In this document: positions 136 to 16,441 of the stretch, in pieces
Position numbering within the stretch: position 1 is the first letter of the stretch
Layout: every line of letters starts with the position of its first letter
From: a virus
Taxonomy: Duplodnaviria; Heunggongvirae; Uroviricota; Caudoviricetes
Strand: one strand, 5' to 3'
DNA length: 64,000 nt
IMG/VR virus record: IMGVR_UViG_3300018065_000012
Program-made: the position numbers and the translations under genes
Notes under the pieces: model-generated
Databases searched by the model: none
Seen by the model: the letters and a program-made list of their open reading frames with translations, nothing else
What the model was told of the DNA's origin: nothing

Positions 136-444
136 ATGGATGATAAAGAGATAGCTCAGGAGCTTTTGAGAACTGCTCAATTACTTATTAGCGGTATCCC
201 TTCTGCCGTTGCTAAAAAAAATCTTGCCAAGGCATATGCTTTGAAGATTGAGTCAGCAAAGAGTAAAGCGCCGATGAGACATCAGCAAAGGTTTCACGAC
301 AGATTTCAGAAATTATACGATAAGTTGTCTTCTAAGCATCCAGACGTAGACATGAATTCTGCTGGGTTTTGGGGATCACTTGAAAGGCATGCGAAGAAGT
401 GGTGGGACAGCAGGGGGATGAAAGGGCCATCTGTAGATTGGTAA
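136..444 (+). CDS. small protein, N-terminal ELLK-AK helix family (MDDKEIAQELLRTAQLLIS)
   Basis: ORF 94..444 trimmed to internal ATG preceded by gggaaa SD-like; N-terminal family motif. Confidence 0.55.
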   Translation: MDDKEIAQELLRTAQLLISGIPSAVAKKNLAKAYALKIESAKSKAPMRHQQRFHDRFQKLYDKLSSKHPDVDMNSAGFWGSLERHAKKWWDSRGMKGPSVDW

Positions 445-481
445 AAGTGAAAAGCGTCCTTTTCTTACAGGGATGGGGAAA

Positions 482-754
482 ATGAAGAAAGTGGCTTTTG
501 AGCTTTTGAAGATAGCAAAGCTTATGAACGCTGATGTGCAGGCGCCTTCAGTGCTTAAGAAGGGAACGAAGTTCACAGGCGAGGGAGGTATTGAGTTTGT
601 GGTGAAGGAGATTTGGGTAGGGATTCCTCAGCATAGTTTTACCAGTGACGGAATGACGTGGATAAGTTACAGCTACAAAATGCCAGAAGGTCGTAAGGGA
701 ACTGAGAAGAACACTTTGGAAAATTTCTTGAAGCTTGTTCGGCAGGGGAAGTAA
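482..754 (+). CDS. small protein, ELLK-AK family (MKKVAFELLKIAKLMNA); C-terminus paralogous to 5924..6448
   Basis: N-terminal motif; leader nearly identical to that of 136..444. Confidence 0.6.
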   Translation: MKKVAFELLKIAKLMNADVQAPSVLKKGTKFTGEGGIEFVVKEIWVGIPQHSFTSDGMTWISYSYKMPEGRKGTEKNTLENFLKLVRQGK

Positions 755-755
755 A

Positions 756-1214
756 ATGGAAAATACAAAAATCGCTGGTGAATTATTGAAGTTGGCTGGT
801 CAATTACTTGGGCCGGGAAAGCCGGACGGGACTGGGCCTGTTGGATTGGGTCGTAGGCGCAGGCGGCGAGAGCAGGAATGCGACGAAGACGGTTTTTACG
901 AGCCTATGAGCAATGAAGACGAATGTGAGGAGGCTGTTGCTCAGGAGATTTTGAAGGCTTCAAAGTTAGTAAACGCTACTGACGACAAAACAAAGGCTAA
1001 GATTGCGTTAAGGGCATTATCGAGGGCAACGACGCACATGGATAAGTTGGTTGATGAGTTGCATTATTCTCATCAAGAGTTTCCAGATTTAGGAACAAAG
1101 GGTTCAAGATTGAAAGCAAGACTAAAAAAGATTATGGAGGCTGCAAACAAGGTTCAGACGTTGAGTGCGATGTCTTACAGTGATTTGGAGTCATATTTGA
1201 AGGCGGTGAAGTAA
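756..1214 (+). CDS. small protein, ELLK-AK family (MENTKIAGELLKLAGQLLGPG)
   Basis: ATG at 756 after ggcaggggaag SD; family motif then Gly/Pro/Arg-rich linker. Confidence 0.65.
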   Translation: MENTKIAGELLKLAGQLLGPGKPDGTGPVGLGRRRRRREQECDEDGFYEPMSNEDECEEAVAQEILKASKLVNATDDKTKAKIALRALSRATTHMDKLVDELHYSHQEFPDLGTKGSRLKARLKKIMEAANKVQTLSAMSYSDLESYLKAVK

Positions 1215-1549
1215 TGGAAAACAAAAAAATAGCATCTGAGCTTTTGAAGTTGGCTAAGAGTTTGGTTGGGGTGCGCATAAACAAAAGCAGCATCAAAAAG
1301 AAATTGATGGCCAACGTAGTCAACAAGTTTACGGTAGTAGCTCCAGACGACAAAGAATTTGAATTTTCGACATCTGGGAGTTCAGCGGAAGGAATCAACG
1401 GTTATTTATTCCGCGATAAGACGCCTTGGGTAGAATGGGATTGTTACGACGATGGCGTAAAGAAGGCTTTGGGATTCAGAACAATAAGGATGATTTGGTC
1501 TGTGGCTAAGAACGGCGTATTGAAGCCTTTTGATATTACGTTCAAATAA
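1214..1549 (+). CDS. small protein, ELLK-AK family (MENKKIASELLKLAKSLVG)
   Basis: Family motif; 5' 57 nt ~90% identical to 1561..1617. Confidence 0.7.
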   Translation: MENKKIASELLKLAKSLVGVRINKSSIKKKLMANVVNKFTVVAPDDKEFEFSTSGSSAEGINGYLFRDKTPWVEWDCYDDGVKKALGFRTIRMIWSVAKNGVLKPFDITFK

Positions 1550-1560
1550 GGAAGAGTTCG

Positions 1561-1788
1561 ATGGAAAACGCAAAAATAGCATCTGAGCTTTTGAAGTTAG
1601 CAAAGAGTTTGGTTGGTCAGAAGGACTTGGATGTTCGCAAAGTGAAAGCTATTCGCAAGAAAGTGATAGAGGCTCGGAATGCCATATCGAACTTGAAGGG
1701 TGAGATTTCAAAGTCAGAAATAAACAAGTTGGATTCAGTGATGAAGCAGTTGGACAAGGCTGCTGAAGGTTTGTATTATTTCATATAG
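1561..1788 (+). CDS. small protein, ELLK-AK family (MENAKIASELLKLAKSLVG)
   Basis: Family motif; aggaag SD. Confidence 0.7.
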   Translation: MENAKIASELLKLAKSLVGQKDLDVRKVKAIRKKVIEARNAISNLKGEISKSEINKLDSVMKQLDKAAEGLYYFI

Positions 1789-1798
1789 GATTCTTGAA

Positions 1799-2020
1799 AT
1801 GAATGGAGTCGCTCTTGAACTTTTGAAAGTTGCTAAATTGGTAAAGGCTGGGGCGATTACTGACAAGGCAGAGCGGTTTGTAATGTCTGCTGATCACAGT
1901 TTTTCTTTAGCATTGGAAGGCATAGCAGAAGTCGCTACAAAGGCAAAGAAGCGTTCGATTGCCAATGCGATAACAAAGGCGGCGAAAGACGTACAGCGAT
2001 TGGAAGCGAAGGGGGAGTAA
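1799..2020 (+). CDS. small protein, ELLK-AK family (MNGVALELLKVAKLVKAG)
   Basis: Family motif variant. Confidence 0.6.
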   Translation: MNGVALELLKVAKLVKAGAITDKAERFVMSADHSFSLALEGIAEVATKAKKRSIANAITKAAKDVQRLEAKGE

Positions 2021-2451
2021 TGGAAAACAAAAAAGTCGCTCAAGAGCTTTTGAAGATTTCCAAGCTTTTGTCTGCCGGTTATCAGGATTGGGGTTTGCGT
2101 TGGAGCGAGTTTGACCGCAACGATCGCATAAAGACCAAGCAGAAGTTTTTCAAGGATGAAAAAGCGCGCAAGAAGTTCATTGACAAGCTGGAAAAGAAAG
2201 ATAACTTCAAGGGCGTTGAAAGTTATTCAGACCCAAAGACAGCGAAGGTTTTATCAGGAGCTTACAAAGACGATTTGGAGAAGATAATCGACAATCGTGG
2301 TTTGAAGAGCGTGATTGATACGATTGCGCAAATCTGTCATGACAAAGCGCAGCATGTAAGGGAGAATCAGCAAGACGAGCGTCGGGCGAAGTTGTGGGAA
2401 AAGGACGCAAAGCATTTGGAGCGTGCTCATCTCAAGCTTGAGAATTACTAA
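2020..2451 (+). CDS. small protein, ELLK-AK family (MENKKVAQELLKISKLLSAG)
   Basis: Family motif; ATG overlaps preceding stop (TAATG). Confidence 0.7.
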   Translation: MENKKVAQELLKISKLLSAGYQDWGLRWSEFDRNDRIKTKQKFFKDEKARKKFIDKLEKKDNFKGVESYSDPKTAKVLSGAYKDDLEKIIDNRGLKSVIDTIAQICHDKAQHVRENQQDERRAKLWEKDAKHLERAHLKLENY

Positions 2452-2461
2452 AGGATTTGAA

Positions 2462-2803
2462 ATGAAGAAAGTCGCCGTTGAACTTTTGAAGATGGCTAAG
2501 TTGTTAATCAGTGAAGAGCGTGAGGAGTTGATACAGTTTGCTAAGGACGTACAGAAGAAGTTGGAATCCAAGGCAAGGATGAGGTTTAAGCGTAAGACAG
2601 GAACATCCAGAAAGCCTTTCGTTGGTTTTGAGGTAAAGAATTGGCAGGATGAAGTGATTCCAAATGAAATTCGTGTATTGGTAGCAAAGACGCTTGGAGT
2701 TACGGGAGTGAAGAATTGGGACAATGTAAATTACGGAAATATTACGCCGCAGCGCATTGTTTTGAGAAAAGAGCAATGGGAAAAGGTTTTGAAAAAGCTA
2801 TAG
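2462..2803 (+). CDS. small protein, ELLK-AK family (MKKVAVELLKMAKLLISEE)
   Basis: Family motif at internal ATG of ORF 2423..2803. Confidence 0.65.
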   Translation: MKKVAVELLKMAKLLISEEREELIQFAKDVQKKLESKARMRFKRKTGTSRKPFVGFEVKNWQDEVIPNEIRVLVAKTLGVTGVKNWDNVNYGNITPQRIVLRKEQWEKVLKKL

Positions 2804-2816
2804 GGAGACTTTAGAA

Positions 2817-3353
2817 ATGAAAGACGTTGCGCGTGAGTTGATTATAGCCAAAATCATTCGGCGTACAAAACTAAATGAGGACGGCAGCGCAAGAGTAGAC
2901 AACAAAGGCGTTGCGAAAGAGCTTTTGAAGATAGCCAAACTTTTATCTGCTAAGCGTTACAATGTGATTGACAAAATAGGAGACTGGGAGTTAGCCATTG
3001 AAGTACGTTGGGGAGGTTTAGTTACACCTATCATATTGAAGGGTGGCAAAGAAGTAGATCAGTTAGCTCCCAATATGAGACAACCCGCAGCCAAGAGGGA
3101 GTTCAAGAAGTACGTTCAGAAGCACGGGAGAAGGGCTAAATCTTTTACAAGCAAGGAAGGCAAAAAAGGCGACAGGGTAAGGATTATCAAAAACAAAAAG
3201 CTTGAGAAAGAGATGCCCGGCATAATTGGGATGACTGGCGAGTTTGGCGGATATTCAAGCCGTGGTGCAAGGGTGAAAAACTTGACCAACAAAAGAGGAC
3301 GCGTTAGTTACGGGTTCACAGACGTTCCTTCGGATTCGATTGAGTTTATATAA
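2817..3353 (+). CDS. ELLK-AK family protein with two tandem N-terminal copies of the motif (MKDVARELIIAKII ... GVAKELLKIAKLLSAK)
   Basis: Motif duplicated within the same N-terminus. Confidence 0.65.
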   Translation: MKDVARELIIAKIIRRTKLNEDGSARVDNKGVAKELLKIAKLLSAKRYNVIDKIGDWELAIEVRWGGLVTPIILKGGKEVDQLAPNMRQPAAKREFKKYVQKHGRRAKSFTSKEGKKGDRVRIIKNKKLEKEMPGIIGMTGEFGGYSSRGARVKNLTNKRGRVSYGFTDVPSDSIEFI

Positions 3354-3364
3354 AGGATTTGGAT

Positions 3365-3601
3365 ATGGACAACAAAAAGGTTGCTCAAGAGTTGTTGAAG
3401 ATTGCAAAGGTTTTGAACGGCGCGGCAAGCGTGACGATGATTAACGCTTTGAAACGTTCGCTTGACAATTTGAAGAAGGTACAAAACATCGTAAAAAAAG
3501 ACCCAAAGCGTTATTGGGGAGCTTTGGAAGGACGTTTTGAAGAAATCGAGAAGAATACCAGAGAACTCTTGAAGTATTCTGTAGCGGGAACGAAGAAATG
3601 A
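3365..3601 (+). CDS. small protein, ELLK-AK family (MDNKKVAQELLKIAKVLNG)
   Basis: ATG 3365 with aagga SD 7 nt upstream; ORF table start 3359 is TTG. Confidence 0.65.
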   Translation: MDNKKVAQELLKIAKVLNGAASVTMINALKRSLDNLKKVQNIVKKDPKRYWGALEGRFEEIEKNTRELLKYSVAGTKK

Positions 3602-4677
3602 ATATAGTCACTGAGCTTAAAGTATTGCTTCAAAAACACAAAGCTGATAATTGGAAAAAGCTTTTGTTGGATTCCATTACTGAAGCAAAACAGAAAGCAA
3701 AGTTGGAAGGTTTGAGGGGAGCGGATAAGTTTCCTGTTGGTCTTGAAGGCAAAAATGGTTACTATGCCTATTTGGAAAAACTGGTAAAGTGGATTCCAAG
3801 GGAGAATTACGACGAGGAAGTGCTTTACCATTTGTGCGAATTTTATTGGCTGTTGAACCAGCCACCGGGAAAGAAGTTACAGAAGAGCAAAAGCTTCAAC
3901 AAGTGGATGCGTGATTTTGCAAATCAATGGGGCAGTTTTTTGAACACGGACGAATCTGCAAAAGACTTGCAAACCTTTGTTGATGATCCTGCTTTCAGGG
4001 CTGGCGATTACATGCCCAATCCGAGCGGTTGGAGAACGTTCAATCAATTTTTCGCAAGGGAAATCAAGCCGGGTTTGAGGCCGGTGGCAGGGATGTTTGA
4101 TGACAACATTGTATGTTCGTCTGCTGATTCGACATTCGTGCGGAAGTTCCCGATAGGCGAGGACAACGAAGTCGTCATAAAACTCACGCACAAATACAAA
4201 ATACTGGATTTGCTGGAAGGTAGTCCATATCAGGAGCGCTTCAAGGGTGGGATGTTCTATCATGCATTTTTGGGGCCGAATGATTATCACAGGTTTCGCG
4301 CTCCAGTACGTGGTACGGTTTTGGAGTGTCGCGCAATACAACAGAACGTTTATCTGCAAGTGAAAATCCAAGACGGCAAGTTTTCAGCTCCTGACGGGGC
4401 TGGATACGAGTTCACTCAAACGCGTGGTTTGATTGTATTCGACTCTCCAATTGGATTGGTAGCAGTATTGCCAATCGGAATGGCGCAGGTAAGCAGCGTC
4501 AATATGACGGCAGTGGTCGGGAGCTATCTTAATAAGGGTGAAGAGTTTGGTTACTTTATGTTTGGGGGTTCAGATATCATCATGTTGTTTGAAGAACAAA
4601 GCAACGTAGTGATTTCAGCGGCTCCGGGCGTCCACTACAATTGTGGAATGGCCATTGGCGAAACGGTGAGTGAATAG
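3598..4677 (+). CDS. phosphatidylserine decarboxylase-like (pyruvoyl-dependent) domain protein with a ~150-aa N-terminal extension carrying a weak family-like helix (MNIVTELKVLLQK)
   Basis: FLGPNDYHRFRAPVRGTV matches PSD GPxDYHRxH motif; FGGSDIIMLF resembles the LGST self-cleavage site. Confidence 0.5.
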   Translation: MNIVTELKVLLQKHKADNWKKLLLDSITEAKQKAKLEGLRGADKFPVGLEGKNGYYAYLEKLVKWIPRENYDEEVLYHLCEFYWLLNQPPGKKLQKSKSFNKWMRDFANQWGSFLNTDESAKDLQTFVDDPAFRAGDYMPNPSGWRTFNQFFAREIKPGLRPVAGMFDDNIVCSSADSTFVRKFPIGEDNEVVIKLTHKYKILDLLEGSPYQERFKGGMFYHAFLGPNDYHRFRAPVRGTVLECRAIQQNVYLQVKIQDGKFSAPDGAGYEFTQTRGLIVFDSPIGLVAVLPIGMAQVSSVNMTAVVGSYLNKGEEFGYFMFGGSDIIMLFEEQSNVVISAAPGVHYNCGMAIGETVSE

Positions 4678-4679
4678 CA

Positions 4680-5024
4680 ATGCGCCGAATGGGAGTTGCG
4701 GTACCATCAGAGAACAAAGGCGGCGACTGCTATCGAGCAGCGGGAACATATATTGTCGACAATGCATTTGGTAAAAATGGAGACAAATCATTGGTTCTTG
4801 TGCATGGAGAAGTAACCGGACAAGGGCCAATTGAGGGAGTCAAATACGGTCATGCTTGGGTTGAAAAAGGTGGCATGGTTATTGATAAATCAAACGACAG
4901 AGATATCAAGATGCCAAAAGCATTGTACTATGCATTGGGAAACATAAAGAAAACGGTTCGGTATACGTCGGAAGAAGTATTAGACAAAATAACAACGACA
5001 GAACATTGGGGACCATGGGACTGA
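4680..5024 (+). CDS. hypothetical protein (no family motif)
   Basis: 114-aa ORF tightly packed between neighbours. Confidence 0.5.
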   Translation: MRRMGVAVPSENKGGDCYRAAGTYIVDNAFGKNGDKSLVLVHGEVTGQGPIEGVKYGHAWVEKGGMVIDKSNDRDIKMPKALYYALGNIKKTVRYTSEEVLDKITTTEHWGPWD

Positions 5025-5116: not shown

Positions 5117-5461
5117 ATGGAAAACAAAAAAGTAGCGGCTGAATTATTAAAGGTAGCGAGTCTTTTGTCGGCTGTGGACGTTGAGAAGATTCGTAAAGAC
5201 GCAATGAAGAATTATCAAAACGCTTTACAAAATGCGGTGAGGGCGATAAACAAATACGACCTTCATCGTACAGGGCTTGAGCTTGAATTAGCAAAGCGGT
5301 ATTTCAGAAAGGGCGGTATGGTTTTTGATATTCCAGCGCAAGAGACGTTGCGTCTGGTAGAGAAGGCAATGGCGTCTTTGAAAAAAGCAAGAGGCTTCAA
5401 AAGCAAGTTAGACGCTGAAATAAGCAATACGCGAGATTCTACACAACGAGCAATGCTGTAA
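5117..5461 (+). CDS. small protein, ELLK-AK family (MENKKVAAELLKVASLLSA)
   Basis: Internal ATG of ORF 5006..5461 preceded by ggggaagagagct; family motif. Confidence 0.6.
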   Translation: MENKKVAAELLKVASLLSAVDVEKIRKDAMKNYQNALQNAVRAINKYDLHRTGLELELAKRYFRKGGMVFDIPAQETLRLVEKAMASLKKARGFKSKLDAEISNTRDSTQRAML

Positions 5462-5572: not shown

Positions 5573-5927
5573 AGTGTTTGCCAAACAACTGTTAGTAGTG
5601 GCAAAACATCTTCAATGGAAGGCTTTACATAAAGCCGGAATAGATTTGAGCGGCGTAGACAAGAAAGCAATGAAGGCAATGGATGACGAATTGGACGTAG
5701 CGTTCAAAAGGGCTGAAGCCCGGAAAGAATTGGTAAATCAGATTCACGACGGGTTAAGTTTATTAGGCGACCTTGCGGAGAATCGTGGAGAAAAGAAATT
5801 AGCCTCAACGGTAAAACATAGTTGGAATCAACTTGAAAAGTTGGGAAAAGGGATACGTAGTGAGTTTGATAGGATTAAGCGGGAACAGTTGAGCGAAGAA
5901 ATCAAAGGCAAAAGGACAAAACAATGA
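5484..5927 (+). CDS. hypothetical protein; variant motif FAKQLLVVAKHL at residue ~32; full-length paralog of remnant 6884..7020
   Basis: GTG start with aaggag SD 7 nt upstream; ends ...EEIKGKRTKQ. Confidence 0.6.
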   Translation: MGRQTEAGTLVRYARQIMALDEEMTEHERRVFAKQLLVVAKHLQWKALHKAGIDLSGVDKKAMKAMDDELDVAFKRAEARKELVNQIHDGLSLLGDLAENRGEKKLASTVKHSWNQLEKLGKGIRSEFDRIKREQLSEEIKGKRTKQ

Positions 5928-6448
5928 GAAACAAAAAGTTAGCGGTTGAATTGGTAAAGGTAGCTAAGTTGTTGCTCGCAGCGGAACTTTCTGACGTAGC
6001 TTACGCTTTGGGAAAAGAATACGCTTATCGCTCAAAGCCTTCCAACAAAGAATATGCCGCGTTTGAAGCAACTCATACAAAGAAGCAAAGCAAGGCGTTG
6101 GATGATGCTGTTGGGCGTTTGGAACGGAAGGGAATCAAGGTCAAGAGTTTGAGTATTGAAGCGAAGAAAGTAAGGGATATTGAAAACCCCGTAGTGATAA
6201 TTTATTTGCCTGATTTGAAAAAAGAAATACCTTTGGAACTGCCAAACAAATTGGAGAAGGGGACGAAGTTTAGAGCAAGGGGTGGAACGAATATTGAAGT
6301 GAAGGGTGTTTGGATTAGCATTTTTCATGCGCGTCCAGAAAAATCATCCCCAAGAATTAAGTACAATTATAAAACGCCAGATGGAAAGTCGGGGACGGAA
6401 GAAAACACGTTGGTGAATTTCATTCGGTTGATCAAGCAAGGAGTTTGA
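5924..6448 (+). CDS. small protein, ELLK-AK family (MRNKKLAVELVKVAKLLLAA); C-terminal GTKF..GG..NTL.NF domain shared with 482..754
   Basis: Family motif; paralog of 7018..7437 at N-terminus. Confidence 0.7.
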   Translation: MRNKKLAVELVKVAKLLLAAELSDVAYALGKEYAYRSKPSNKEYAAFEATHTKKQSKALDDAVGRLERKGIKVKSLSIEAKKVRDIENPVVIIYLPDLKKEIPLELPNKLEKGTKFRARGGTNIEVKGVWISIFHARPEKSSPRIKYNYKTPDGKSGTEENTLVNFIRLIKQGV

Positions 6449-6449
6449 A

Positions 6450-6883: not shown

Positions 6884-7020
6884 ATGGCACATCAAATTGA
6901 AGCAGGAACGCTGGTTCGTTATGCTCGGCAGATTATGGCATTGGATGAGGAAATGACCGAGCATGAAAGAAGGCGGGAACAGTTGAGTGATGAAATCAAA
7001 GGCAAGAGGACAAAACAATG
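6884..7020 (+). CDS. truncated paralog (45 aa) of 5484..5927 produced by ~306-nt in-frame internal deletion (MAHQIEAGTLVRYARQIMALDEEMTEHERR|REQLSDEIKGKRTKQ)
   Basis: DNA 6859..6972 and 6974..7047 repeat 5458..5572 and 5880..5953; reading frame preserved. Confidence 0.5.
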
Positions 7021-7437
7021 AGAAACAAAAAGTTAGCGGTTGAATTGATCAAGCTTGCAAGAGAACTTGTCGCAGAGGAAGTCGTTGATGATATGATGGG
7101 CAAGGTGGCTGACTTCTTGCATGAAAATCCAAAACCCTCAGATGACGATTTCCACGAATGGGCAGAAAAGGCAGGCGTGGATAAGCATGAAGCTGAAGCA
7201 GCGGCTTACAGGTTGGCAACCTTATTTGTTGAGTTTTGGAAAGACGGTCTTGCAAACAAGGAAGGCTTCAAAGAAGAAGACGCCGACCCTGAAGAATTGA
7301 AAATGGGCATTGAAATTGAGTACGAACATACGCCCAACCCAAAAGTATCAAAGCGTATTGCTTTGGACCATCTTGCAGAAATTTCTGATTATTATACGCG
7401 CCTTAAGAAAATGGAAGAGGAAGCAGGTGTAGAATGA
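7018..7437 (+). CDS. small protein, ELLK-AK family (MRNKKLAVELIKLARELVAEE)
   Basis: Family motif; 5' DNA near-identical to 5924 start. Confidence 0.7.
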   Translation: MRNKKLAVELIKLARELVAEEVVDDMMGKVADFLHENPKPSDDDFHEWAEKAGVDKHEAEAAAYRLATLFVEFWKDGLANKEGFKEEDADPEELKMGIEIEYEHTPNPKVSKRIALDHLAEISDYYTRLKKMEEEAGVE

Positions 7438-8019: not shown

Positions 8020-8319
8020 ATGAACGACAAACAACTTGCGCAACGACTGTTAAAATTGGCTGGTTCGCTTTTGGGTCCGGGGATTCCCGATGGAACCGGG
8101 CCGATGGGTGGAACGCCCGAATGTCCAATGAGTAACGCCGTCGAGGAGCCTGTTGAAGCTGATCCCGTTGAGCAGATTCTTGAAAACCAAGAAGAAATCA
8201 TGGAAGAGCTGGATGAAATTGAAGATGTCTTGGACGTTCACCCACCAGAACATCATATGGCGGCTGAGCTGGTAAAGATTGCAAAGGAACTTATCAAAGA
8301 GGGAAAGGACGATGCCTGA
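8020..8319 (+). CDS. ELLK-AK family protein with motif at both ends (N-terminal MNDKQLAQRLLKLAGSLLGPG; C-terminal MAAELVKIAKELIKEGKDDA)
   Basis: Motif at both termini; GPG.PDGTGP linker as in 756..1214. Confidence 0.65.
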   Translation: MNDKQLAQRLLKLAGSLLGPGIPDGTGPMGGTPECPMSNAVEEPVEADPVEQILENQEEIMEELDEIEDVLDVHPPEHHMAAELVKIAKELIKEGKDDA

Positions 8320-8671
8320 ATTTCTCAATCCGTTTCAAGTGAAAGACCTTGGTCGCCCAATGAATTTGCGCGAATTACAACGGGCGCTTCGGCAATCTAT
8401 TGCGGCTGAAGAAGAAGCGGTTCACTTGTATGAAGCTTATGCGGATGCTTCTGAATTGCAATATGTTAAAAAGGTTTTTCAAGACATTGCTGACGAAGAA
8501 AAAGTTCATGTGGGAGAATTTCAAGAATTGTTGAATCGTTTTGATTCAGGGGAACGTGAATTTCTTGAAGAGGGCGCGGACGAAGTTCAAGAGATGTTAT
8601 CTGAAGACGTCATTGCTTCAAGGGTTGCTAAAGCATTCATTGCCGGGCGTGCCGAAGATTTAGAGATTTAG
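8312..8671 (+). CDS. small acidic protein with two E-x-x-H motifs (EEEAVHLYEAY ... DEEKVHVGEF), ferritin/rubrerythrin-like four-helix candidate
   Basis: Paired ExxH motifs ~35 aa apart; ATG overlaps upstream stop. Confidence 0.4.
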   Translation: MPEFLNPFQVKDLGRPMNLRELQRALRQSIAAEEEAVHLYEAYADASELQYVKKVFQDIADEEKVHVGEFQELLNRFDSGEREFLEEGADEVQEMLSEDVIASRVAKAFIAGRAEDLEI

Positions 8672-11418: not shown

Positions 11419-11426
11419 AGGCCGGG

Positions 11427-11597: not shown

Positions 11598-11609
11598 GGA
11601 GGTTTACTT

Positions 11610-11858: not shown

Positions 11859-11859
11859 A

Positions 11860-11910
11860 GGTCATTTAAGGCTCCTGCCCGTCGATTCGCCTTCTCCCTT
11901 CTCCGATGAG
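11860..11910 (+). other. perfect 11-bp GC-rich inverted repeat (ggctcctgccc / gggcaggagcc) with 29-nt loop; possible terminator or RNA/protein-binding structure
   Basis: Seen directly; no U-tract follows. Confidence 0.35.
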
Positions 11911-11942
11911 GGCAGGAGCCTCTCCCCTTTCTGGAGTTTGCT

Positions 11943-12356
11943 GTGAAGACTGTAGCAAAAGAATTATTGAAAGTAGCTAAATTGCTTACAAGCGGAAAAG
12001 TAAGAGTCAGAACGCAGACTCCTGACGTTGAATTGGATGATGTTGAATTGATTCAGCGGGTAAAAAGCTACGGTAAAGACGCACAATCATCTTATGGGTT
12101 GTTCGTAAGAGCACGCGGTTTGAGGCCGAAGATCAACATGAAGAAGTTTAGGGAGATTTGGGATTCAGTATCGCCCAACAAGCATGAAAAAGTGGAAACA
12201 GTTGATTTCAAACCTACGCACAAATCAAAGGATGTTGAAGGTTTGACTATTATGGTGACGCAAGTTGAACCAAATATAGTGCGTTTCATATCAAGTTATG
12301 GCGGTACTGGATCAAGCCCAGCTGGGCTTTTCAAAAGTCAGTACAAAAAAATCTGA
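11943..12356 (+). CDS. small protein, ELLK-AK family, GTG start (VKTVAKELLKVAKLLTSG)
   Basis: Family motif; ggag 8 nt upstream of GTG. Confidence 0.6.
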   Translation: MKTVAKELLKVAKLLTSGKVRVRTQTPDVELDDVELIQRVKSYGKDAQSSYGLFVRARGLRPKINMKKFREIWDSVSPNKHEKVETVDFKPTHKSKDVEGLTIMVTQVEPNIVRFISSYGGTGSSPAGLFKSQYKKI

Positions 12357-12373
12357 ACCCAAGGGAACAGCGA

Positions 12374-12571
12374 ATGGCCGTTGAAGCAACAAGGCAAAAA
12401 ATCTTATTGGAGATCAAAAGGCTACGTCCGGATTTTCCAGATACTACAATCAGACAATGGGTTGATGACTTTTTGAAAGCAGTTAAAAATGCAGATTTGG
12501 AATTGGTAGTAGGCCGGAAGACGAAAACAAAGATTGTACTTCCGAAAAATATTATTAACAGAAGGAGATGA
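12374..12571 (+). CDS. hypothetical small protein
   Basis: aaggga SD 7 nt upstream. Confidence 0.5.
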   Translation: MAVEATRQKILLEIKRLRPDFPDTTIRQWVDDFLKAVKNADLELVVGRKTKTKIVLPKNIINRRR

Positions 12572-12573
12572 AG

Positions 12574-12732
12574 ATGAGAAAAATGAAGCACCCAAGGTGC
12601 AGCCGTGGATTACACGACTATCAGAAAATAAACCAGTACATGAAAGAATGCAAGAACTGCGAGAAGCGCGTAAGAATTGGATTTGATATTCGCAAAAACA
12701 AGATCAGCAATATAGGAAGAAAAAGACGATGA
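12574..12732 (+). CDS. possible 52-aa basic Cys-containing peptide
   Basis: Unlisted ORF with aggag SD 6 nt upstream. Confidence 0.3.
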   Translation: MRKMKHPRCSRGLHDYQKINQYMKECKNCEKRVRIGFDIRKNKISNIGRKRR

Positions 12733-12816
12733 GAAAGAGCGGAAAAGGCAGACGAAAAATAGGTAAGAAGAAACGTCTTGCGAGAAGAAAAGCCCGCAAC
12801 AAGAAATGAGGTAACT

Positions 12817-13323
12817 GTGCCCGAACAGAAACCAAAATCAAAAGAAAACAATACGACGGTACTGACGAAAAGCGGCGTAGTTAAGAAGGTTTTGCTTGCT
12901 GTGATTACCGGCGCTGTCGGAACTGCCTTTGCTGGGATTGTTTGGGTTTGTGGAACGGTTTTGACGCTTCAAAAGGATATGACCACAACGAAAGCGAGTG
13001 TGGAATCAACGGCAAAAATGATTGAGGAACGTTTCAAAGAGCGCCCTGATGATATGGCAATTTGGGAACAGTTGCACAAACATGCAGGAGAGATTAAGGA
13101 ATTGCAAATTAAGGATGCGTTTAAGGACGGACGTTGGGAAGGAATACATAAGAGAAAAATAGAGCACCCTATTCCAGAACCAGATGACGAGGAAGCTATA
13201 GAAAAACCAGAACCAAAAGAAAACGGAGACGATACGAGATCATTTCGAGAAAAACACATGCGTCCTTGGATTCAACAACAGCAAGCAAACGAACCACCGC
13301 TTATGTTGAATAGGAAAAAATGA
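12817..13323 (+). CDS. single-pass membrane protein (TM helix VKKVLLAVITGAVGTAFAGIVWVCGTVL)
   Basis: GTG start after gaggt; hydrophobic segment. Confidence 0.5.
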   Translation: MPEQKPKSKENNTTVLTKSGVVKKVLLAVITGAVGTAFAGIVWVCGTVLTLQKDMTTTKASVESTAKMIEERFKERPDDMAIWEQLHKHAGEIKELQIKDAFKDGRWEGIHKRKIEHPIPEPDDEEAIEKPEPKENGDDTRSFREKHMRPWIQQQQANEPPLMLNRKK

Positions 13324-13344
13324 AAATTATAAAGGATGATCAAA

Positions 13345-13611
13345 ATGAAAAACAAAGGAGTATCGTCGAAACAGGCGTATCACTTGCTCTGTCTCATCAG
13401 GCGAAATTCTTTGAACTTGGGGGGTAAGGAAAAGTTTGCGGTCATAAAGCATTTGGAAAAGATGGCAAAACCATATATAGAAAAACACGTAAGCCATGAA
13501 GAAGTTCAACTTGGAGAATTGTCAAAGCAAATTAGTTACTTGGCGGGGATTGTTCAAAACGTGAGAACGAATCTGGAACAAAAAAATGGAAAAGTCAAAA
13601 CGCATGAATGA
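13345..13611 (+). CDS. hypothetical protein
   Basis: aaagga SD 8 nt upstream of second ATG. Confidence 0.5.
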   Translation: MKNKGVSSKQAYHLLCLIRRNSLNLGGKEKFAVIKHLEKMAKPYIEKHVSHEEVQLGELSKQISYLAGIVQNVRTNLEQKNGKVKTHE

Positions 13612-13828
13612 AAAACAAATTGCTACAAGAATTGCAAAAAGGCTTTTAGCTGATCCCGTAGTTGATAATTACGCAATTGAACTTCAAAAGGCTTCAGACA
13701 AGTTGGAGAATATTTCGAAGAAGGTGCGGTCAAAATCAATAGCTGATTTCAATAAACAGAAAGCAAAACGGTCACTCAAACAATTGAAGCTTGTCCTTGG
13801 ATTATTAACTTCAAATTTCAAGGTGTAA
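13604..13828 (+). CDS. hypothetical small protein with degenerate helix motif (IATRIAKRLLADP)
   Basis: ATGAATGA overlap. Confidence 0.45.
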   Translation: MNEKQIATRIAKRLLADPVVDNYAIELQKASDKLENISKKVRSKSIADFNKQKAKRSLKQLKLVLGLLTSNFKV

Positions 13829-13832
13829 AACG

Positions 13833-14390
13833 ATGCCATTCAAAAGCGTTGAGGAAGCAATAAAGAAACATCCCGGTTTGAAGAAGTATAGTCAGAAGGC
13901 GCAACGGGGTTGGCTCAAGTCGATCAACAGTTGTTTTGCTGGCGGGGGAGACGATGGTAAATGTTTTCCAATTGCTTGGAGCGTAGCAAACAAAGCGGAT
14001 AGCAAGAAAGCCATGGACGAAAAAGATTTTGATGAATGGGTCGTTGACGTGGAGTTCAGAGCAGGGCGGTTTGTAGTTTTCAAAGCAGACACGTTTGCAA
14101 GAGCAGACGAGGTGTACGAAGTTTATCCAAAAGGAAGCAAGAAGAAAATAGCAAGTATAATTTTCAATAACGGAAGAATCAAAATCATGGCAGATGCTTG
14201 GACGTTTACGAGGGAAAACCCTTTGGTCAAAGTTGATAGGGAGATACGAGATCCAAAGCCGATAGATGCGGCTAAGTATTTAGTCAAGCTTTACAAGCTT
14301 TGGGAAATGTACTATACGAAGAGAAAAATTTCAACAGAGTTAATCAAGATAGCAAAGATTCTTATTGGAGAGAACGGCAGTGGAGATTAA
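13833..14390 (+). CDS. hypothetical 185-aa protein carrying the family motif at its C-terminus (ISTELIKIAKILIGENGSGD)
   Basis: C-terminal occurrence of motif. Confidence 0.6.
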   Translation: MPFKSVEEAIKKHPGLKKYSQKAQRGWLKSINSCFAGGGDDGKCFPIAWSVANKADSKKAMDEKDFDEWVVDVEFRAGRFVVFKADTFARADEVYEVYPKGSKKKIASIIFNNGRIKIMADAWTFTRENPLVKVDREIRDPKPIDAAKYLVKLYKLWEMYYTKRKISTELIKIAKILIGENGSGD

Positions 14391-14559
14391 TTACGATGAC
14401 TCGAAATACTGTAATTTATTTGGAGTTGAAAAACGTTGCAGACACTTACATGTGAAACGTGGAAGGTGTAAACGGTTGAAAAAGGATTTGGAAAAAGGAA
14501 TTCTCGGTCTGTGCAGAGTCGTTGAATGCCAAAAGAGAAAATTGAGGGAATACAAATGA
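14365..14559 (+). CDS. possible small Cys-containing protein
   Basis: Overlaps both neighbours; weak. Confidence 0.3.
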   Translation: MERTAVEINYDDSKYCNLFGVEKRCRHLHVKRGRCKRLKKDLEKGILGLCRVVECQKRKLREYK

Positions 14560-14942
14560 AACAGATTGCAAAACAGCTTTTGAAAATTGCCGCTATACTC
14601 GTCAATCCCTTAAATGGAATGAGAAAACAAAAAGCAACAAAAGTTGTAAACAAATTGATGGCAGACGCATCAAAAGGGCTTTTCAGCGATTCATATTGGA
14701 GAGGCGTAAAACAAGTTTGGGAAGCGTTAGACAGAGCAGGAATCCCTTATACGATTATGAGCAACAAGTATACACAGGATAAAGTAACAGGCAACCCCAA
14801 TGCGAAAGAATGGAAGTTTGAAATAGAGTTTGCAAACGAGCGCGGACGCCTTCATAAGCTTTATGGGCGGTTGGTTGCAAGTGGCGCTGGTCCAATTGAT
14901 GATCCTCTTGAACGCTATGATATCACGGTGTATGCTTCATGA
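14556..14942 (+). CDS. small protein, ELLK-AK family (MKQIAKQLLKIAAILVNP)
   Basis: Internal ATG of ORF 14526..14942. Confidence 0.6.
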   Translation: MKQIAKQLLKIAAILVNPLNGMRKQKATKVVNKLMADASKGLFSDSYWRGVKQVWEALDRAGIPYTIMSNKYTQDKVTGNPNAKEWKFEIEFANERGRLHKLYGRLVASGAGPIDDPLERYDITVYAS

Positions 14943-16441
14943 ATGTTTCATCTGAACTTCAAAAAATAGCAACGCTTCTCGTAACTGCGACTCTCGCAGA
15001 AAAAGAATTTGAACGCTTTCTCAAAGTGTTTTTGAAAGGTACGCCTTTTGCGCACAAGGCGTATGCCGTAGGCGGTTACGTCCGTGATGAATTGTTAGGT
15101 TTGGAATCAAAAGACCTTGACGTTGTTGTAGAGATGAAGGGTGGCGCTGAAAAACTTACTAAGTTGATTAAGAAGGAATTGGGCAAAGCAGTTTCTACTC
15201 CGAGGCAATTGGGCGCTGGTTATCCTATTTGGCAGATTGCTTTCAAAGAAGATATTTCTTATGAGGGTAAGACGTATAAAACCAAAGGCGCGGTTCTTGA
15301 ATTTGCCGATACGATGACTGAGAGTTTTCCTGACCCAGAAAGCAGACAACGACAAACTGAATATGGAACGCTTGAGCAGGACGTTAAACGCCGAGATTTT
15401 ACCGTCAACATGTTGATGAAAGATTTGACAAACGGTGAAATCAAAGACTTGACCGGAGTGAGTAAGAATGATTTGAAGAAAGGAATCTTGCGCGGTCATC
15501 CCGGCGTTTCGCTTGATAAGATTTTCATGAACGACCCGTTGCGAATGATACGTTTGATCCGGTTCCAAACGAAATACGGATGGGACATTCCAATGGATGT
15601 GTTACGCATTGTCAAACGCAATGCAAAACGAATTCAAATTGTGTCGCCTGAACGCATTATGGGAGAACTTGAAAAGGTAATGAAATTGGGCAAACTGAAC
15701 AAAGCAATTCGATTAATGAAGATAACAGGTTTACTCAAATATGTACTTCCAGAAGTGGATGAGCTTACAAAAGTCAAGCAGTCGCCGAAGCAACATGCAG
15801 AAGGAAACGTATTCAAACATACTATGATGGTATTGAAAAACGCAAAGCCAACGGTAGAGGCTCAGATGGCGGCGTTGTTGCATGACGTTGGAAAGGCAAA
15901 GACGCAGCAGATATTTGGAAACGGGATTTCATTCCATGGCCATGAAAAAGTGTCTGGTGAAATCGCGGAAGCAATTTTGCGTAGGCTGAAGTTTGACAGT
16001 CGTACGATCAATACTGTTCGCAAATTGGTTGAAAATCATATGCGGCCACATCGAATTGATGATATGATAAAATCAAACAAGGGCGATTCAGCGCGTGTGC
16101 AGAAAGTATTGCGTCGCTTTGTCCGCAAGATTGGTGATGAATCTATTGATGCGTTGATTGACTTGGCAGAGGCGGATGCGATCGGAAAGTTGCCGCCGCA
16201 GAATTATGCTCCCAATCTGAGGCGCATGATTGATGATATCAGAAAGTCTCCGTTACCCGTTTCAAAAAAGCCAGTGTTGGACGGCAAAGAAATTATGCAA
16301 ATACTGAACGTGAAGCCGGGACCGCTTGTTGGGGACGTGTCGCGGTTTCTGATTGAGTTGGAAGAGGACTATGCCGCAAAAGGAAAAGCGTTGAAGAAGG
16401 ACGAAGCAAAGAAACAGGTGCTTGAAAGATATAGTCGTTGA
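14939..16441 (+). CDS. cca: CCA-adding tRNA nucleotidyltransferase with HD domain, fused to a ~28-aa N-terminal family helix (MNVSSELQKIATLLVTATLAEKEFERFLK)
   Basis: AYAVGGYVRDELLG...DLDVVV head-domain motifs of Pol-beta NTase/CCA enzymes; HD region downstream. Confidence 0.75.
   Translation: MNVSSELQKIATLLVTATLAEKEFERFLKVFLKGTPFAHKAYAVGGYVRDELLGLESKDLDVVVEMKGGAEKLTKLIKKELGKAVSTPRQLGAGYPIWQIAFKEDISYEGKTYKTKGAVLEFADTMTESFPDPESRQRQTEYGTLEQDVKRRDFTVNMLMKDLTNGEIKDLTGVSKNDLKKGILRGHPGVSLDKIFMNDPLRMIRLIRFQTKYGWDIPMDVLRIVKRNAKRIQIVSPERIMGELEKVMKLGKLNKAIRLMKITGLLKYVLPEVDELTKVKQSPKQHAEGNVFKHTMMVLKNAKPTVEAQMAALLHDVGKAKTQQIFGNGISFHGHEKVSGEIAEAILRRLKFDSRTINTVRKLVENHMRPHRIDDMIKSNKGDSARVQKVLRRFVRKIGDESIDALIDLAEADAIGKLPPQNYAPNLRRMIDDIRKSPLPVSKKPVLDGKEIMQILNVKPGPLVGDVSRFLIELEEDYAAKGKALKKDEAKKQVLERYSR

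What the first reader, a model, noticed from the sequence alone, without database searches (positions are those of the whole stretch)
136..16441. Tandem array of ~28 paralogous small genes sharing an N-terminal (M)ENKK[IV]AxELLK[IL]AKxL helix with unrelated C-terminal bodies
Members, by protein N-terminus: MDDKEIAQELLRTAQLL, MKKVAFELLKIAKLM, MENTKIAGELLKLAGQLL, MENKKIASELLKLAKSLVG, MENAKIASELLKLAKSLVG, MNGVALELLKVAKLV, MENKKVAQELLKISKLL, MKKVAVELLKMAKLL, MDNKKVAQELLKIAKVL, MENKKVAAELLKVASLL, MRNKKLAVELVKVAKLL, MEKVAAELIKIAKSL, MRNKKLAVELIKLAREL, MKKLVRELLKIAEVI, MNDKQLAQRLLKLAGSLL, MKIASELLKIAKLL, MERIAKELLKIAKQI, VKTVAKELLKVAKLL, MKQIAKQLLKIAAIL, and others. After about 20 residues the proteins diverge completely and range from 60 to 500 aa. 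Several have a Gly or GPG.PDGTGP linker right after the helix. Some 5' ends are near-identical at the DNA level (1214-1270 vs 1561-1617), others only at the protein level. That pattern fits a birth-and-death family under diversifying selection on the C-terminal part with purifying selection on the helix. I do not recognise this family from known phage protein families.
Basis: seen in the sequence. Interest (0 to 1): 0.9.

Follow-up and report, generated by a model that had tools for sequence, protein, structure and literature searches.

The report
Shared helix tag on jumbo-phage proteins
An uncultured jumbo phage carries a 16-kb run of genes in which 22 otherwise unrelated, mostly small and basic proteins share one strictly conserved 18-residue helix, most likely an address tag that loads them into the virus head, like the phage T4 capsid-targeting sequence on a much larger scale.

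Summary
Twenty-two of 36 genes in window 136-16441 carry the motif M-[DEN]-N-K-K-[VIL]-A-x-E-L-[LVI]-K-[ILV]-A-K-x-L. There are 26 matches of at least 15 bits against none in 30 shuffles. Synonymous codons vary, so selection acts on the peptide. The protein bodies are unrelated.

The window is part of a jumbo phage of at least 338 kb. The same tag occurs on 117 complete ORFs in 34 related loci and on 52 proteins among 1.84 billion representatives. No Pfam or PHROG family covers it.

Four findings link the tag to head assembly:
- Tagged genes flank the prohead protease in this phage and its relatives.
- Orthologues of array genes lie inside the head module of relatives: CCA-adding enzyme, DUF5661, a ferritin-like protein and two proteins of unknown function.
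- The protease has the T4 gp21/assemblin fold.
- The tag contains [VIL]-A-x-E, which fits the cleavage logo of such proteases. Its Glu sits at residue 9 in 69 of 100 cases; the T4 equivalent is at residue 10.

Array proteins are basic, like T4 internal proteins.

My best reading, at about 50% confidence, is a portable head-targeting helix. Packaging and cleavage are not shown. This is a shared module on non-homologous bodies, spread by recombination within the tag-coding DNA.

The parts
136..444 (+). tagged gene, 102 aa (MDDKEIAQELLRTAQLL)
   Evidence: PSSM 31.8 bits at residue 4; RBS
482..754 (+). tagged gene, 90 aa; C-terminal domain shared with 5924-6448
   Evidence: 40.0 bits; BLASTP 46% identity over 65 aa with 5924-6448
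756..1214 (+). tagged adaptor-type gene, 152 aa: tag, GPGKPDGTGP, then a second weaker tag
   Evidence: 32.5 and 14.4 bits; GPG motif
1214..1549 (+). tagged gene, 111 aa
   Evidence: 40.5 bits; its 57-nt tag is 93% identical to that of 1561
1561..1788 (+). tagged gene, 75 aa
   Evidence: 37.3 bits
1799..2020 (+). tagged gene, 73 aa (= P0001, seen on 11 contigs, the longest 338 kb)
   Evidence: 30.4 bits
2020..2451 (+). tagged gene, 143 aa
   Evidence: 39.1 bits
2462..2803 (+). tagged gene, 113 aa
   Evidence: 41.8 bits
2817..3353 (+). tagged gene, 178 aa; degenerate N-terminal copy plus a strong copy at residue 30
   Evidence: 40.5 and 6.3 bits
3365..3601 (+). tagged gene, 78 aa
   Evidence: 42.3 bits
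3598..4677 (+). untagged gene inside the array: phosphatidylserine decarboxylase
   Evidence: Pfam PS_Dcarbxylase 5.6e-40; no tag
5117..5461 (+). tagged gene, 114 aa
   Evidence: 38.2 bits
5484..5964 (+). source copy of a segmental duplication: gene 5484-5927 plus the first 41 nt of the next gene's tag
   Evidence: 5485-5572 matches 6885-6972 at 91% and 5879-5964 matches 6973-7058 at 92%
5924..6448 (+). tagged gene, 174 aa
   Evidence: 37.6 bits
6450..6872 (+). tagged gene, 140 aa
   Evidence: 39.1 bits
6884..7021 (+). 45-aa deletion remnant of a copy of 5484-5927
7018..7437 (+). tagged DUF5661 protein, 139 aa
   Evidence: 33.9 bits; Pfam DUF5661 5.2e-15; orthologue between TerL and portal in L002
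7434..7997 (+). tagged gene, 187 aa, with a second degenerate copy
   Evidence: 26.2 bits
8020..8319 (+). adaptor-type gene, 99 aa: tag, GPGIPDGTGP, acidic linker, C-terminal tag
   Evidence: 29.8 and 35.2 bits; AlphaFold2 gives helix 3-18, coil 19-50, helices 51-70 and 76-97
8312..8671 (+). rubrerythrin/EncFtn-like ferritin-fold protein. It is untagged here but directly tagged in relatives.
   Evidence: Pfam Rubrerythrin 1.7e-10; N-terminal tag in L066; tag after the domain in L127
8718..9095 (+). tagged gene, 125 aa
   Evidence: 40.7 bits
10651..11418 (+). tagged gene, 255 aa
   Evidence: 32.0 bits; tagged orthologue inside the head module of L004
11943..12356 (+). tagged gene, 137 aa (GTG start)
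   Evidence: 38.4 bits
13833..14390 (+). gene of 185 aa with the tag at its C-terminus
   Evidence: 31.1 bits at residue 164
14556..14942 (+). tagged gene, 128 aa
   Evidence: 33.1 bits; the orthologue sits immediately upstream of the protease in L125/L008, but no tag of 12 bits or more was found on it
14939..16441 (+). CCA-adding enzyme/poly(A) polymerase family protein with an HD domain and a weaker N-terminal tag; last gene of the array
   Evidence: Pfam PolyA_pol 9.5e-20 starting at residue 41, plus HD; tag 17.8 bits; orthologues carry a tag of 20-28 bits in L091, L002, L010 and L127, and those of L002, L005 and L010 lie near TerL and the portal
41303..43117 (+). terminase large subunit
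   Evidence: phrog_9 3.6e-18
43674..45638 (+). portal protein
   Evidence: phrog_16240 3e-26
45635..47941 (+). 768-aa K/E-rich protein after the portal, with an internal tag-like helix (AKAIADEYIRIAKSFVAG)
   Evidence: 13.0 bits at nt 46067
50814..51011 (+). 65-aa head-module ORF with a C-terminal tag
   Evidence: 24.1 bits
51428..51868 (+). 146-aa head-module protein with an N-terminal tag
   Evidence: 19.5 bits; tagged ORFs occupy this region in L001, L123 and L125
52263..53228 (+). prohead maturation protease with the T4 gp21/herpesvirus assemblin fold
53647..53940 (+). 97-aa head-module protein with a strong N-terminal tag
   Evidence: 36.0 bits; counterpart at L125:12581, 34.7 bits
55908..57864 (+). 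two acidic scaffold-like proteins (235 and 404 aa) between the protease and the major capsid protein
   Evidence: composition and position; conserved in L123 and L125; weak tag-like helix at nt 56256, 8.9 bits
58654..59505 (+). major capsid protein, 283 aa (TTG start)
   Evidence: phrog_2522 major head protein 2.8e-53; 92.6% identical to the L125 protein

Best explanation
The motif is a portable amphipathic helix of about 18 residues followed by a small-residue or flexible linker. I propose that it works as a head-targeting (encapsidation) tag. During prohead assembly it would dock a varied set of cargo proteins onto a shared partner in the scaffold/core or on the inner face of the shell. The cargo would then be enclosed with the DNA and probably delivered into the next host cell. 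The cargo comprises small basic proteins plus enzymes such as a CCA-adding enzyme and DUF5661 here, and TopIB, a ferritin-like protein, a J-domain protein and a Zeta-type kinase in relatives. The gp21/assemblin-type prohead protease may cut the tag after its conserved Glu ([VIL]-A-x-E, then L-L-K) and so release the cargo from the core.

Shown:
- the tag exists and is conserved at the protein level;
- it is modular, sitting on unrelated bodies;
- tagged genes are linked to head genes;
- the protease has the gp21/assemblin fold;
- the array proteins are basic.

Inferred: docking to a head component, encapsidation, cleavage and ejection.

The array grows and changes membership by recombination within the tag-coding DNA.
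For: 1. Modularity. One tag sits on non-homologous bodies. It is N-terminal in 100, C-terminal in 7 and internal in 10 of 117 complete tagged ORFs from 34 loci. It is predicted as a helix followed by coil. The Pfam domain of the CCA enzyme starts only at residue 41.

2. Link to head genes.
- In the window, the only tags outside the array lie between the portal and the capsid gene, on both sides of the protease.
- Relatives keep tagged ORFs next to the protease (L123 has four directly upstream; L125 has one on each side). They also have them directly after the capsid gene (L016) or after TerL (L004 and L006).
- Orthologues of five array genes lie inside the head module of relatives. The CCA enzyme (tag degenerate in L005) and 10651 keep the tag. 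The DUF5661 orthologue has only a degenerate tag and the 14556 orthologue has none detected.

4. Array proteins are basic. Their median pI is 9.7, against 6.4 and 8.1 for neighbouring genes (Mann-Whitney p = 3e-4). T4 IPII and IPIII have pI 9.3 and 9.5.

5. Precedent. In T4, diverse basic internal proteins share only a 10-19-residue capsid targeting sequence that binds the core and is removed by gp21 (PMC9026906, PMC3012670).

6. Some cargo types match domains discussed for proteins thought to be packaged in phage heads, such as metallopeptidases (PMC5512222). HExxH motifs were seen by eye in two tagged proteins, and a Zeta-toxin kinase domain in one.
Against: - There is no direct evidence that any tagged protein is in a virion. 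This is an uncultured phage with no proteomics.
- Conservation runs about 10 residues beyond the putative cleavage Glu. The T4 capsid targeting sequence lies wholly upstream of its cut.
- [VIL]-A-x-E is absent from the scaffold-like proteins and from the capsid protein (0 sites). The specificity of this protease therefore has no independent support.
- The tag also works, or at least persists, at internal and C-terminal positions.
- The main array lies 25 kb from the head module, among small genes of the kind often expressed early. No shared promoter motif was found.
- Some relatives with a similar capsid protein or TerL have no tags near their head genes (L003, L116, L126) or only a degenerate one (L005).
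- Jumbo phages often insert unrelated genes between structural genes, so linkage is only suggestive.
Confidence: 0.5

Rival explanations
1. The helix is a docking tag for a hub that is not the capsid. Candidates are a phage-built compartment or condensate, a chaperone or protease, or a host complex. The tag would bring many phage proteins to one place or one regulator inside the infected cell.
For: The strictly conserved Ala7, Glu9, Leu10, Lys12 and Ala14 point to one specific protein partner, but they do not say which. The array sits in a long run of small genes typical of host-takeover regions. The tagged enzymes (TopIB, CCA-adding enzyme, J-domain protein) would be useful in the cytoplasm.
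Against: It does not explain why tagged genes repeatedly sit beside the protease, portal, TerL and capsid genes in many relatives. It also does not explain the fit to the P4-P1 logo of gp21-family proteases or the fixed position of the Glu. No compartment or hub gene was identified in the window.
Confidence: 0.2
2. The helix is a self-association (coiled-coil) module. It would dimerise or oligomerise small basic, perhaps DNA-binding, proteins and a few enzymes, with no targeting role.
For: Ala at heptad spacing sits in the centre of a Leu/Ile face. That pattern is typical of tight helix-helix packing (my own knowledge). Some proteins carry two or three copies. Most tagged proteins are basic.
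Against: A generic oligomerisation helix would not need near-identical sequence on more than 100 unrelated proteins across divergent phages. AlphaFold2 did not pack the two tags of 8020-8319 together with confidence (pTM 0.34). This reading is compatible with the best explanation if core proteins carry the same helix, since tagged proteins exist in the head module.
Confidence: 0.12
3. The helix is an in-plane membrane anchor that takes the proteins to the host inner membrane.
For: It is a cationic amphipathic helix with KK at its start and Lys on the polar face. A membrane-lipid enzyme (phosphatidylserine decarboxylase) lies in the array.
Against: Membrane-binding helices tolerate sequence change and favour bulky aromatic residues (my own knowledge). 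Here two Ala, one Glu and one Leu are nearly invariant. The phosphatidylserine decarboxylase itself is untagged. The link to head genes is left unexplained.
Confidence: 0.08
4. The similarity is only a remnant of common ancestry or of repeated DNA (a recombination or regulatory element in the 5' coding region), with no function for the peptide.
For: Tag-coding DNA does act as a recombination junction or conversion tract.
Against: Mean nucleotide identity over the tag is only 56% and synonymous codons are mixed, while the residues stay fixed. The peptide is conserved in phages whose TerL is only about 50% identical. The bodies are not homologous.
Confidence: 0.04

Closest known systems
Phage T4 capsid targeting sequence (CTS) on internal proteins IPI/IPII/IPIII and Alt
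   Same: A short N-terminal peptide is shared by otherwise unrelated, small, basic proteins. The genes are adjacent. The phage has a gp21/assemblin-fold prohead protease. A Glu sits about 9-10 residues from the N-terminus, preceded by a hydrophobic residue and Ala. The cargo set varies between related phages (PMC9026906, PMC3012670).
   Different: There is no sequence similarity: T4 MKTYQEFIAE scores -10 and -4 bits with the tag PSSM. The tag here is about twice as long and is conserved beyond the Glu. It also occurs at C-termini and internally. T4 has four known CTS-bearing proteins, while this phage has 22 tagged genes in one array and relatives have about 20. Packaging and cleavage are proven in T4 and unproven here.
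phiKZ/SPN3US giant-phage ejection and inner-body proteins processed at A/S/G-X-E (for example SPN3US gp53 and gp54, which share an identical 15-residue N-terminus)
   Same: These are giant phages with a gp21-type protease. The cleavage logo is A-X-E with Val at P4. Paralogues share N-termini, and many proteins are packaged in the head (PMC5694885, PMC10052503).
   Different: Most of those propeptides exceed 100 residues and the proteins are true paralogues. Here an 18-residue tag sits on non-homologous bodies. TerL of this phage is not close to phiKZ-like phages.
Encapsulin cargo-loading peptides
   Same: A short terminal peptide plus a flexible linker directs unrelated cargo into a protein shell. 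A ferritin-like (EncFtn-like) protein is among the tagged cargo.
   Different: Encapsulins have no portal, terminase or DNA, and their peptides are usually C-terminal and not this helix (my own knowledge). This is a true tailed phage with TerL, portal and protease.
Bacterial microcompartment encapsulation peptides
   Same: An amphipathic helix of about 18 residues at the N-terminus, sometimes the C-terminus, joined by a linker to diverse enzymes (my own knowledge).
   Different: Those helices are conserved in pattern rather than in sequence, and they bind BMC shell proteins. No such shell genes were seen in the proteins scanned here.
Polyvalent and MuF-fused phage effectors, and the phage P1 Dar system
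   Same: The same idea applies: effectors such as peptidases and nucleic-acid enzymes are carried in the head and injected with the DNA (PMC5512222).
   Different: Those systems join effectors to a structural domain or into one giant polypeptide. Here each effector is a separate small gene with a common short tag.

Membership tests
T4-type capsid targeting sequence / internal protein system | Short N-terminal peptide shared by otherwise unrelated proteins | tested here: met
   22 tagged genes with unrelated bodies; 100 of 117 tagged ORFs have the tag at the N-terminus
T4-type capsid targeting sequence / internal protein system | Phage encodes a gp21/assemblin-fold prohead protease | tested here: met
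T4-type capsid targeting sequence / internal protein system | Tag ends in a protease site (P1 Glu near residue 10) and is removed during maturation | tested here: inconclusive
   [VIL]-A-x-E is nearly invariant and its Glu is at residue 9 in 69 of 100 tags. But conservation continues past the Glu, the scaffold-like and capsid proteins have no [VIL]AxE site, and cleavage itself cannot be tested here.
T4-type capsid targeting sequence / internal protein system | Cargo are small basic proteins | tested here: met
   Median pI 9.7 and median length about 120 aa; T4 IPII and IPIII have pI 9.3 and 9.5
T4-type capsid targeting sequence / internal protein system | Tagged proteins are physically present in the prohead core and virion | not testable with these tools
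   Uncultured phage; no proteomics available
T4-type capsid targeting sequence / internal protein system | Sequence homology to the T4 CTS (MKTYQEFIAE) | tested here: not met
   Tag PSSM scores -10.3 (IPII) and -3.6 (IPIII)
phiKZ/SPN3US inner-body or ejection protein families | Paralogous bodies with long propeptides (over 100 aa) cut at A/S/G-X-E | tested here: not met
   Bodies are not homologous and the tag is 18 residues. Only the A-x-E motif is shared.
Encapsulin cargo-loading system | Terminal targeting peptide plus linker on cargo, including ferritin-like cargo | tested here: met
   The rubrerythrin/EncFtn-like protein is tagged in L066 and L127. The helix-then-coil arrangement is seen.
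Encapsulin cargo-loading system | Shell without portal, terminase or DNA packaging | tested here: not met
   TerL, portal, protease and capsid protein are all present
Bacterial microcompartment encapsulation peptides | BMC shell protein genes in the locus | not tested
   No BMC domain appeared among the proteins scanned with Pfam, but not every ORF of the window was scanned.
Any described Pfam or PHROG family covering the tag | Significant match of a library profile to the tag region | tested here: not met
   No Pfam or PHROG match to the tag in more than 60 tagged proteins

The most novel reading that the evidence does not exclude
A whole clade of uncultured jumbo phages uses one sequence-defined 18-residue helix as a universal address label. 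With it, each phage loads 20 or more different proteins into its capsid for co-injection with the DNA. These include small basic effectors, a tRNA CCA-adding enzyme, a type IB topoisomerase, a ferritin-like protein and a Zeta-type kinase. New cargo is recruited simply by recombination at the tag-coding DNA. If so, this would be the largest and most modular virion cargo-loading system known in phages, and a ready-made handle for packaging foreign proteins.
Probability: 0.4. Interest if true: 0.85.

Novelty: new variant of a known kind. Interest (0 to 1): 0.72.

Why it matters
If the tag is a head-targeting signal, it marks a whole set of proteins that a jumbo phage delivers with its DNA. That is exactly the class of proteins, such as anti-defence and host-takeover factors, that is hardest to recognise in uncultured phages. 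One short motif would then annotate well over 100 ORFs of unknown function already seen in the loci and databases searched here. It would show that the T4 capsid-targeting principle arose independently and can grow to more than 20 cargo genes per genome. It would also offer a compact peptide for loading foreign proteins into large capsids. Even if the partner is not the capsid, a strictly conserved docking helix on about 20 unrelated proteins per genome points to an unknown hub in jumbo-phage infection.

Tried and rejected
- Megablast of 1-20000 against INPHARED phages found nothing. tblastn with a 21-aa consensus also found nothing, because the query is too short for the database size.
A 42-aa profile returned only the window's own 73-aa protein.
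- The nearest cultured or complete relatives are Tunturiibacter phage Tunturi_5 (TerL 28%) and the huge phage LR745208 (TerL 32%, capsid protein 71%). Neither has tags near its head genes, even with a sensitive HMM. No proteomic proxy is therefore available.
- Sigma-70 promoter and terminator scans of the array were at chance level. A k-mer search found no motif shared by array and head-gene intergenic regions.
- [VIL]AxE is not enriched in the scaffold-like, portal or capsid proteins, so the cleavage idea has no independent support.
- Pfam and PHROGs gave nothing for nearly all array bodies.
- AlphaFold2 on the two-tag adaptor 8020-8319 gave confident helices but no confident tertiary packing. 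It says nothing on whether tags pair.
- An RNA- or DNA-level explanation is rejected on codon diversity.
- A secretion signal or ClpX-type degron was considered but could not be tested here. It would not explain the copies at internal and C-terminal positions.
- My first greedy gene call put long minus-strand ORFs at 57.9-59.5 kb. Comparison with relatives showed that the + strand there encodes the capsid protein.

Full report
Listing ORFs in 1-18000 and scanning all six frames with a loose pattern showed the motif only on the + strand, in all three frames, almost always just after an ATG. A position-specific scoring matrix (PSSM) built from 23 instances gave 26 matches of at least 15 bits in the window. 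Thirty dinucleotide-preserving shuffles gave none, with a maximum of 12.8 bits. Leave-one-out scores are 12.4-39.8 bits.

Of 36 genes between 136 and 16441, 22 carry a tag of at least 17.8 bits. Plausible ribosome-binding sites precede the starts. After residue 22 the proteins are unrelated by BLASTP, except 482-754 with 5924-6448, and 5484-5927 with its deletion copy 6884-7021. The near-identical 5' ends (1214-1269 and 1561-1616, 93%) and the GPGxPDGTGP linkers are as described.

The array is a discrete block. The 8.2 kb upstream, recovered from an ENA contig as L117, holds small genes without the tag, apart from a degenerate copy just before the window. There is no match of 8 bits or more between 16.4 and 46 kb.

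**2. At what level is it conserved?**
At the invariant Ala, Leu, Glu and Lys positions the codons are mixed: GCT/GCG/GCA/GCC, CTT/TTG/TTA/CTG, and GAG 11 against GAA 10. Mean nucleotide identity over the tag is 56%. Third-position identity at identical residues is 0.44. Selection therefore acts on the peptide, not on an RNA or DNA element.

From 118 distinct tags the consensus is M-[DN]-N-K-K-[VI]-A-x-E-L-[LV]-K-[ILV]-A-K-x-L-[VT]-[AGS]. This is an amphipathic helix with two Ala at heptad spacing in the centre of a Leu/Ile face, followed by small residues. AlphaFold2 on 8020-8319 gives a helix at 3-18, coil at 19-50, and a second tag helix at 76-97. It gives no confident packing (pTM 0.34).

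**3. What genome is this?**
The window encodes:
- TerL, portal, a head-maturation protease and an anaerobic ribonucleotide reductase;
- a major capsid protein at 58654-59505 (phrog_2522, 2.8e-53);
- phosphatidylserine decarboxylase, DUF5661, a rubrerythrin/EncFtn-like protein and a CCA-adding/poly(A) polymerase-HD enzyme.

Identical proteins occur on contigs up to 338 kb, so this is an uncultured jumbo phage. It has no close relative among deposited phages. The nearest by TerL are a 485-kb metagenomic phage (32%) and Tunturiibacter phage Tunturi_5 (28%).

**4. How widespread is the tag?**
- TerL relatives in IMG/VR (48-70% identity, contigs up to 253 kb) carry N-terminal tags near their head genes.
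- A degenerate DNA pattern found multi-copy contigs in IMG/VR and JGI metagenomes.
- A 30-position profile searched against 1.84 billion representative proteins found 52 with E of 1e-3 or better. In 38 of them the best match starts within the first 8 residues, and some carry two or three copies.
- Over all sequence fetched I count 117 complete tagged ORFs in 34 loci. The tag is N-terminal in 100, C-terminal in 7 and internal in 10. Median length is 119 aa.
- L127, a 38-kb JGI contig, holds a syntenic array of 20 tagged genes in 14.5 kb. Like the window's array, it contains a rubrerythrin-like gene, DUF5661 and a GPGxPDGTGP adaptor, and it ends with the tagged CCA enzyme. Most other members differ.
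- No Pfam or PHROG model matches the tag.

**5. Context: the tag goes with head genes.**
Outside the array, the window's only tags lie between the portal and the capsid gene:
- a 65-aa ORF with a C-terminal tag (50814-51011);
- a 146-aa protein (51428-51868) upstream of the protease;
- a 97-aa protein (53647-53940) just downstream of it;
- weaker helix copies inside the 768-aa protein after the portal and inside an acidic scaffold-like protein.

Comparative maps show a conserved order: p435, p199, TerL, p178, portal, p768..., p421..., protease..., acidic proteins, p164, capsid protein. Tagged ORFs appear at several positions within it. L123 has four directly upstream of the protease and L125 has one on each side. 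L016 has three directly after the capsid gene.

Orthologues of five window array genes lie inside this head module in relatives:
- the CCA enzyme in L002, L005 and L010 (tagged in L002 and L010, degenerate in L005);
- 10651-11418 in L004, tagged;
- 14556-14942 immediately upstream of the protease in L125, with no tag detected;
- DUF5661 between TerL and the portal in L002, with only a degenerate tag.

The rubrerythrin-like protein is directly tagged in L066 and L127, both of them tag arrays. In L006 the gene after TerL is a tagged type IB topoisomerase (Pfam 4e-30).

**6. The protease and the Glu.**

In the tag, P4 is V, I or L in 113 of 118, P3 is Ala in 113 and P1 is Glu in 109. The Glu is at residue 9 in 69 of 100 N-terminal tags. 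In T4 IPII and IPIII (MKTYQEFIAE) it is at residue 10.

This is a fit, not a proof. [VIL]AxE is absent from the scaffold-like and capsid proteins, and the tag stays conserved for 10 residues after the Glu.

**7. The cargo.**
Array proteins are markedly basic. Median pI is 9.7 and 72% are above 9. This compares with a median of 6.4 for 35 other window genes and 8.1 for 18 upstream genes (Mann-Whitney p = 3e-4). Thirty-nine database hits from other phages have a median pI of 9.2. T4 IPII and IPIII have pI 9.3 and 9.5 and are described as basic, DNA-associated proteins present at about 300 copies per head (PMC9026906).

Recognisable tagged domains are few: CCA-adding enzyme, DUF5661, ferritin-like, TopIB, DnaJ, Zeta-toxin/AAA_33 kinase with a C-terminal tag, and WYL_2. 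Two tagged proteins contain HExxH motifs, seen by eye only. Peptidases and nucleic-acid enzymes are among the domains proposed for head-packaged effectors (PMC5512222).

**8. How the array evolves.**
Identity between 1214 and 1561 is 87-100% over exactly the 57-nt tag and random on both sides. A duplicated block, 5484-5964 copied to 6884-7058, has an internal deletion. It begins at a gene start and ends 41 nt into the next gene's tag. The window gene 4680-5024 is untagged, but its counterpart in a relative begins MDQIATELLKIAKSL. The rubrerythrin-like protein has the tag at the N-terminus, after the domain, or on a separate upstream adaptor in three different phages. Together these point to the tag-coding DNA acting as a recombination or gene-conversion junction that moves the tag between bodies. 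They do not point to divergence of one ancestral gene.

**9. Most likely mechanism and its rivals.**
The best-supported reading, at about 0.5, is a head-targeting docking helix. It would bind a common partner in the prohead (scaffold/core, or the shell interior), so that tagged proteins are enclosed. The gp21-type protease may cut at the Glu to free them, and they leave with the DNA at infection. Shown: the existence, conservation and modularity of the tag, the linkage to head genes, the protease fold and the basic cargo. Inferred: docking, packaging, cleavage and ejection.

Rivals:
- a tag for a hub other than the capsid (0.2);
- a self-association helix (0.12). This is compatible with the main model if core proteins carry the same helix;
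- a membrane anchor (0.08);
- no peptide function (0.04), largely excluded by the codon data.

**10. Comparison with what is known, and novelty.**
In working principle the closest system is the T4 capsid targeting sequence with its internal proteins. The defining features that could be tested are met, except sequence homology, which is absent. Cleavage is inconclusive and virion presence is untestable.

It differs from the known system in several ways:
- the tag is twice as long, and its conserved helix continues past the Glu;
- it also occurs at C-terminal and internal positions, and adaptor proteins carry a tag at each end;
- the scale is different, at about 20 genes per genome in one array;
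- the cargo includes enzymes.

Encapsulin and microcompartment targeting peptides are analogies only. I rate it a new variant of a known kind. The tag family itself appears undescribed. A full-text search for five heptamer and octamer tag strings found no paper.

Noticed in passing
window 58654-59505; L125:15864-16718; L116:34473-35336: The major capsid protein is far more conserved than the rest of the head module. It is 92.6% identical to relatives whose TerL, portal and protease are 55-61% identical, and 71% identical to the LR745208 protein although TerL there is only 32% identical.
   Followed up: partly
L006:8333-11500 (also split TerL matches in L008 and L010): TerL of a relative is a 1055-aa ORF with an intein-like insertion. 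It has a LAGLIDADG-type motif (LLGYLLGDGG) and ends in ...SHN before the C-terminal TerL part.
   Followed up: no
window 45635-47941 (residues ~160-185) and 49174-50439 (residues ~128-155): Two head-module proteins share a short module, W-[KV]-K-T-x-T-K-N-K-E-G-L-P-G-W-K-D..G.V-R-Y-Q, followed by K/E-rich low-complexity sequence. Similar W/G-rich stretches follow the tag in some database hits (P0123, P0144, P0172).
   Followed up: no
L013:21224, L016:1274, L001:14905; proteins P0131, P0143, P0144: A second recurrent module, [ED]-F-P-[ST]-x-D-A-x-x-K-Y-[LM]-K-E-H-P-x-A-[DN]-x-x-x-H-x-V, often follows the tag directly in relatives. It has no Pfam match.
   Followed up: partly
window 756-1214 and 8020-8319; P0125, P0128, P0141, P0147, P0155: A subfamily has the tag (with Gly in place of the second Lys), then G-P-G-x-P-D-G-T-G-P, a Cys, an acidic linker and a second tag at or near the C-terminus. 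The two ends may let it bridge two partners. The PDGTGP stretch resembles DUF5320-type proteins from memory; Pfam gave no match.
   Followed up: partly
window 11859-11942: One of the few intergenic gaps in the array holds a perfect 12-bp inverted repeat (AGGCTCCTGCCC...GGGCAGGAGCCT) without a T-run.
   Followed up: no
window 16787-16893, 31659-31806, 34357-34779: The 9-mer TTGTATAAT, which looks like an extended -10 element, occurs in three intergenic gaps outside the array.
   Followed up: no
window 57939-59541, minus strand: Long minus-strand ORFs (200 and 335 aa) overlap the capsid and p164 genes in a region of 50% GC. They are spurious: the + strand encodes proteins conserved in relatives.
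   Followed up: yes
window 4680-5024: This untagged 114-aa protein has conserved Cys and His residues (GDCY...HGEV...HAWV). Its counterpart in a relative carries the tag (MDQIATELLKIAKSLTGSSGDCYEV...). It may be a Cys-His peptidase-like fold.
   Followed up: no
L127:13128-13733 and L109:4058 (241 aa): Two tagged proteins in relatives have motifs reminiscent of ADP-ribosyltransferase or Tpt1-like folds (YHGT / YVGTY ... [IV]YL[ST]). Pfam gave no significant match. If real, this would parallel T4 Alt.
   Followed up: partly
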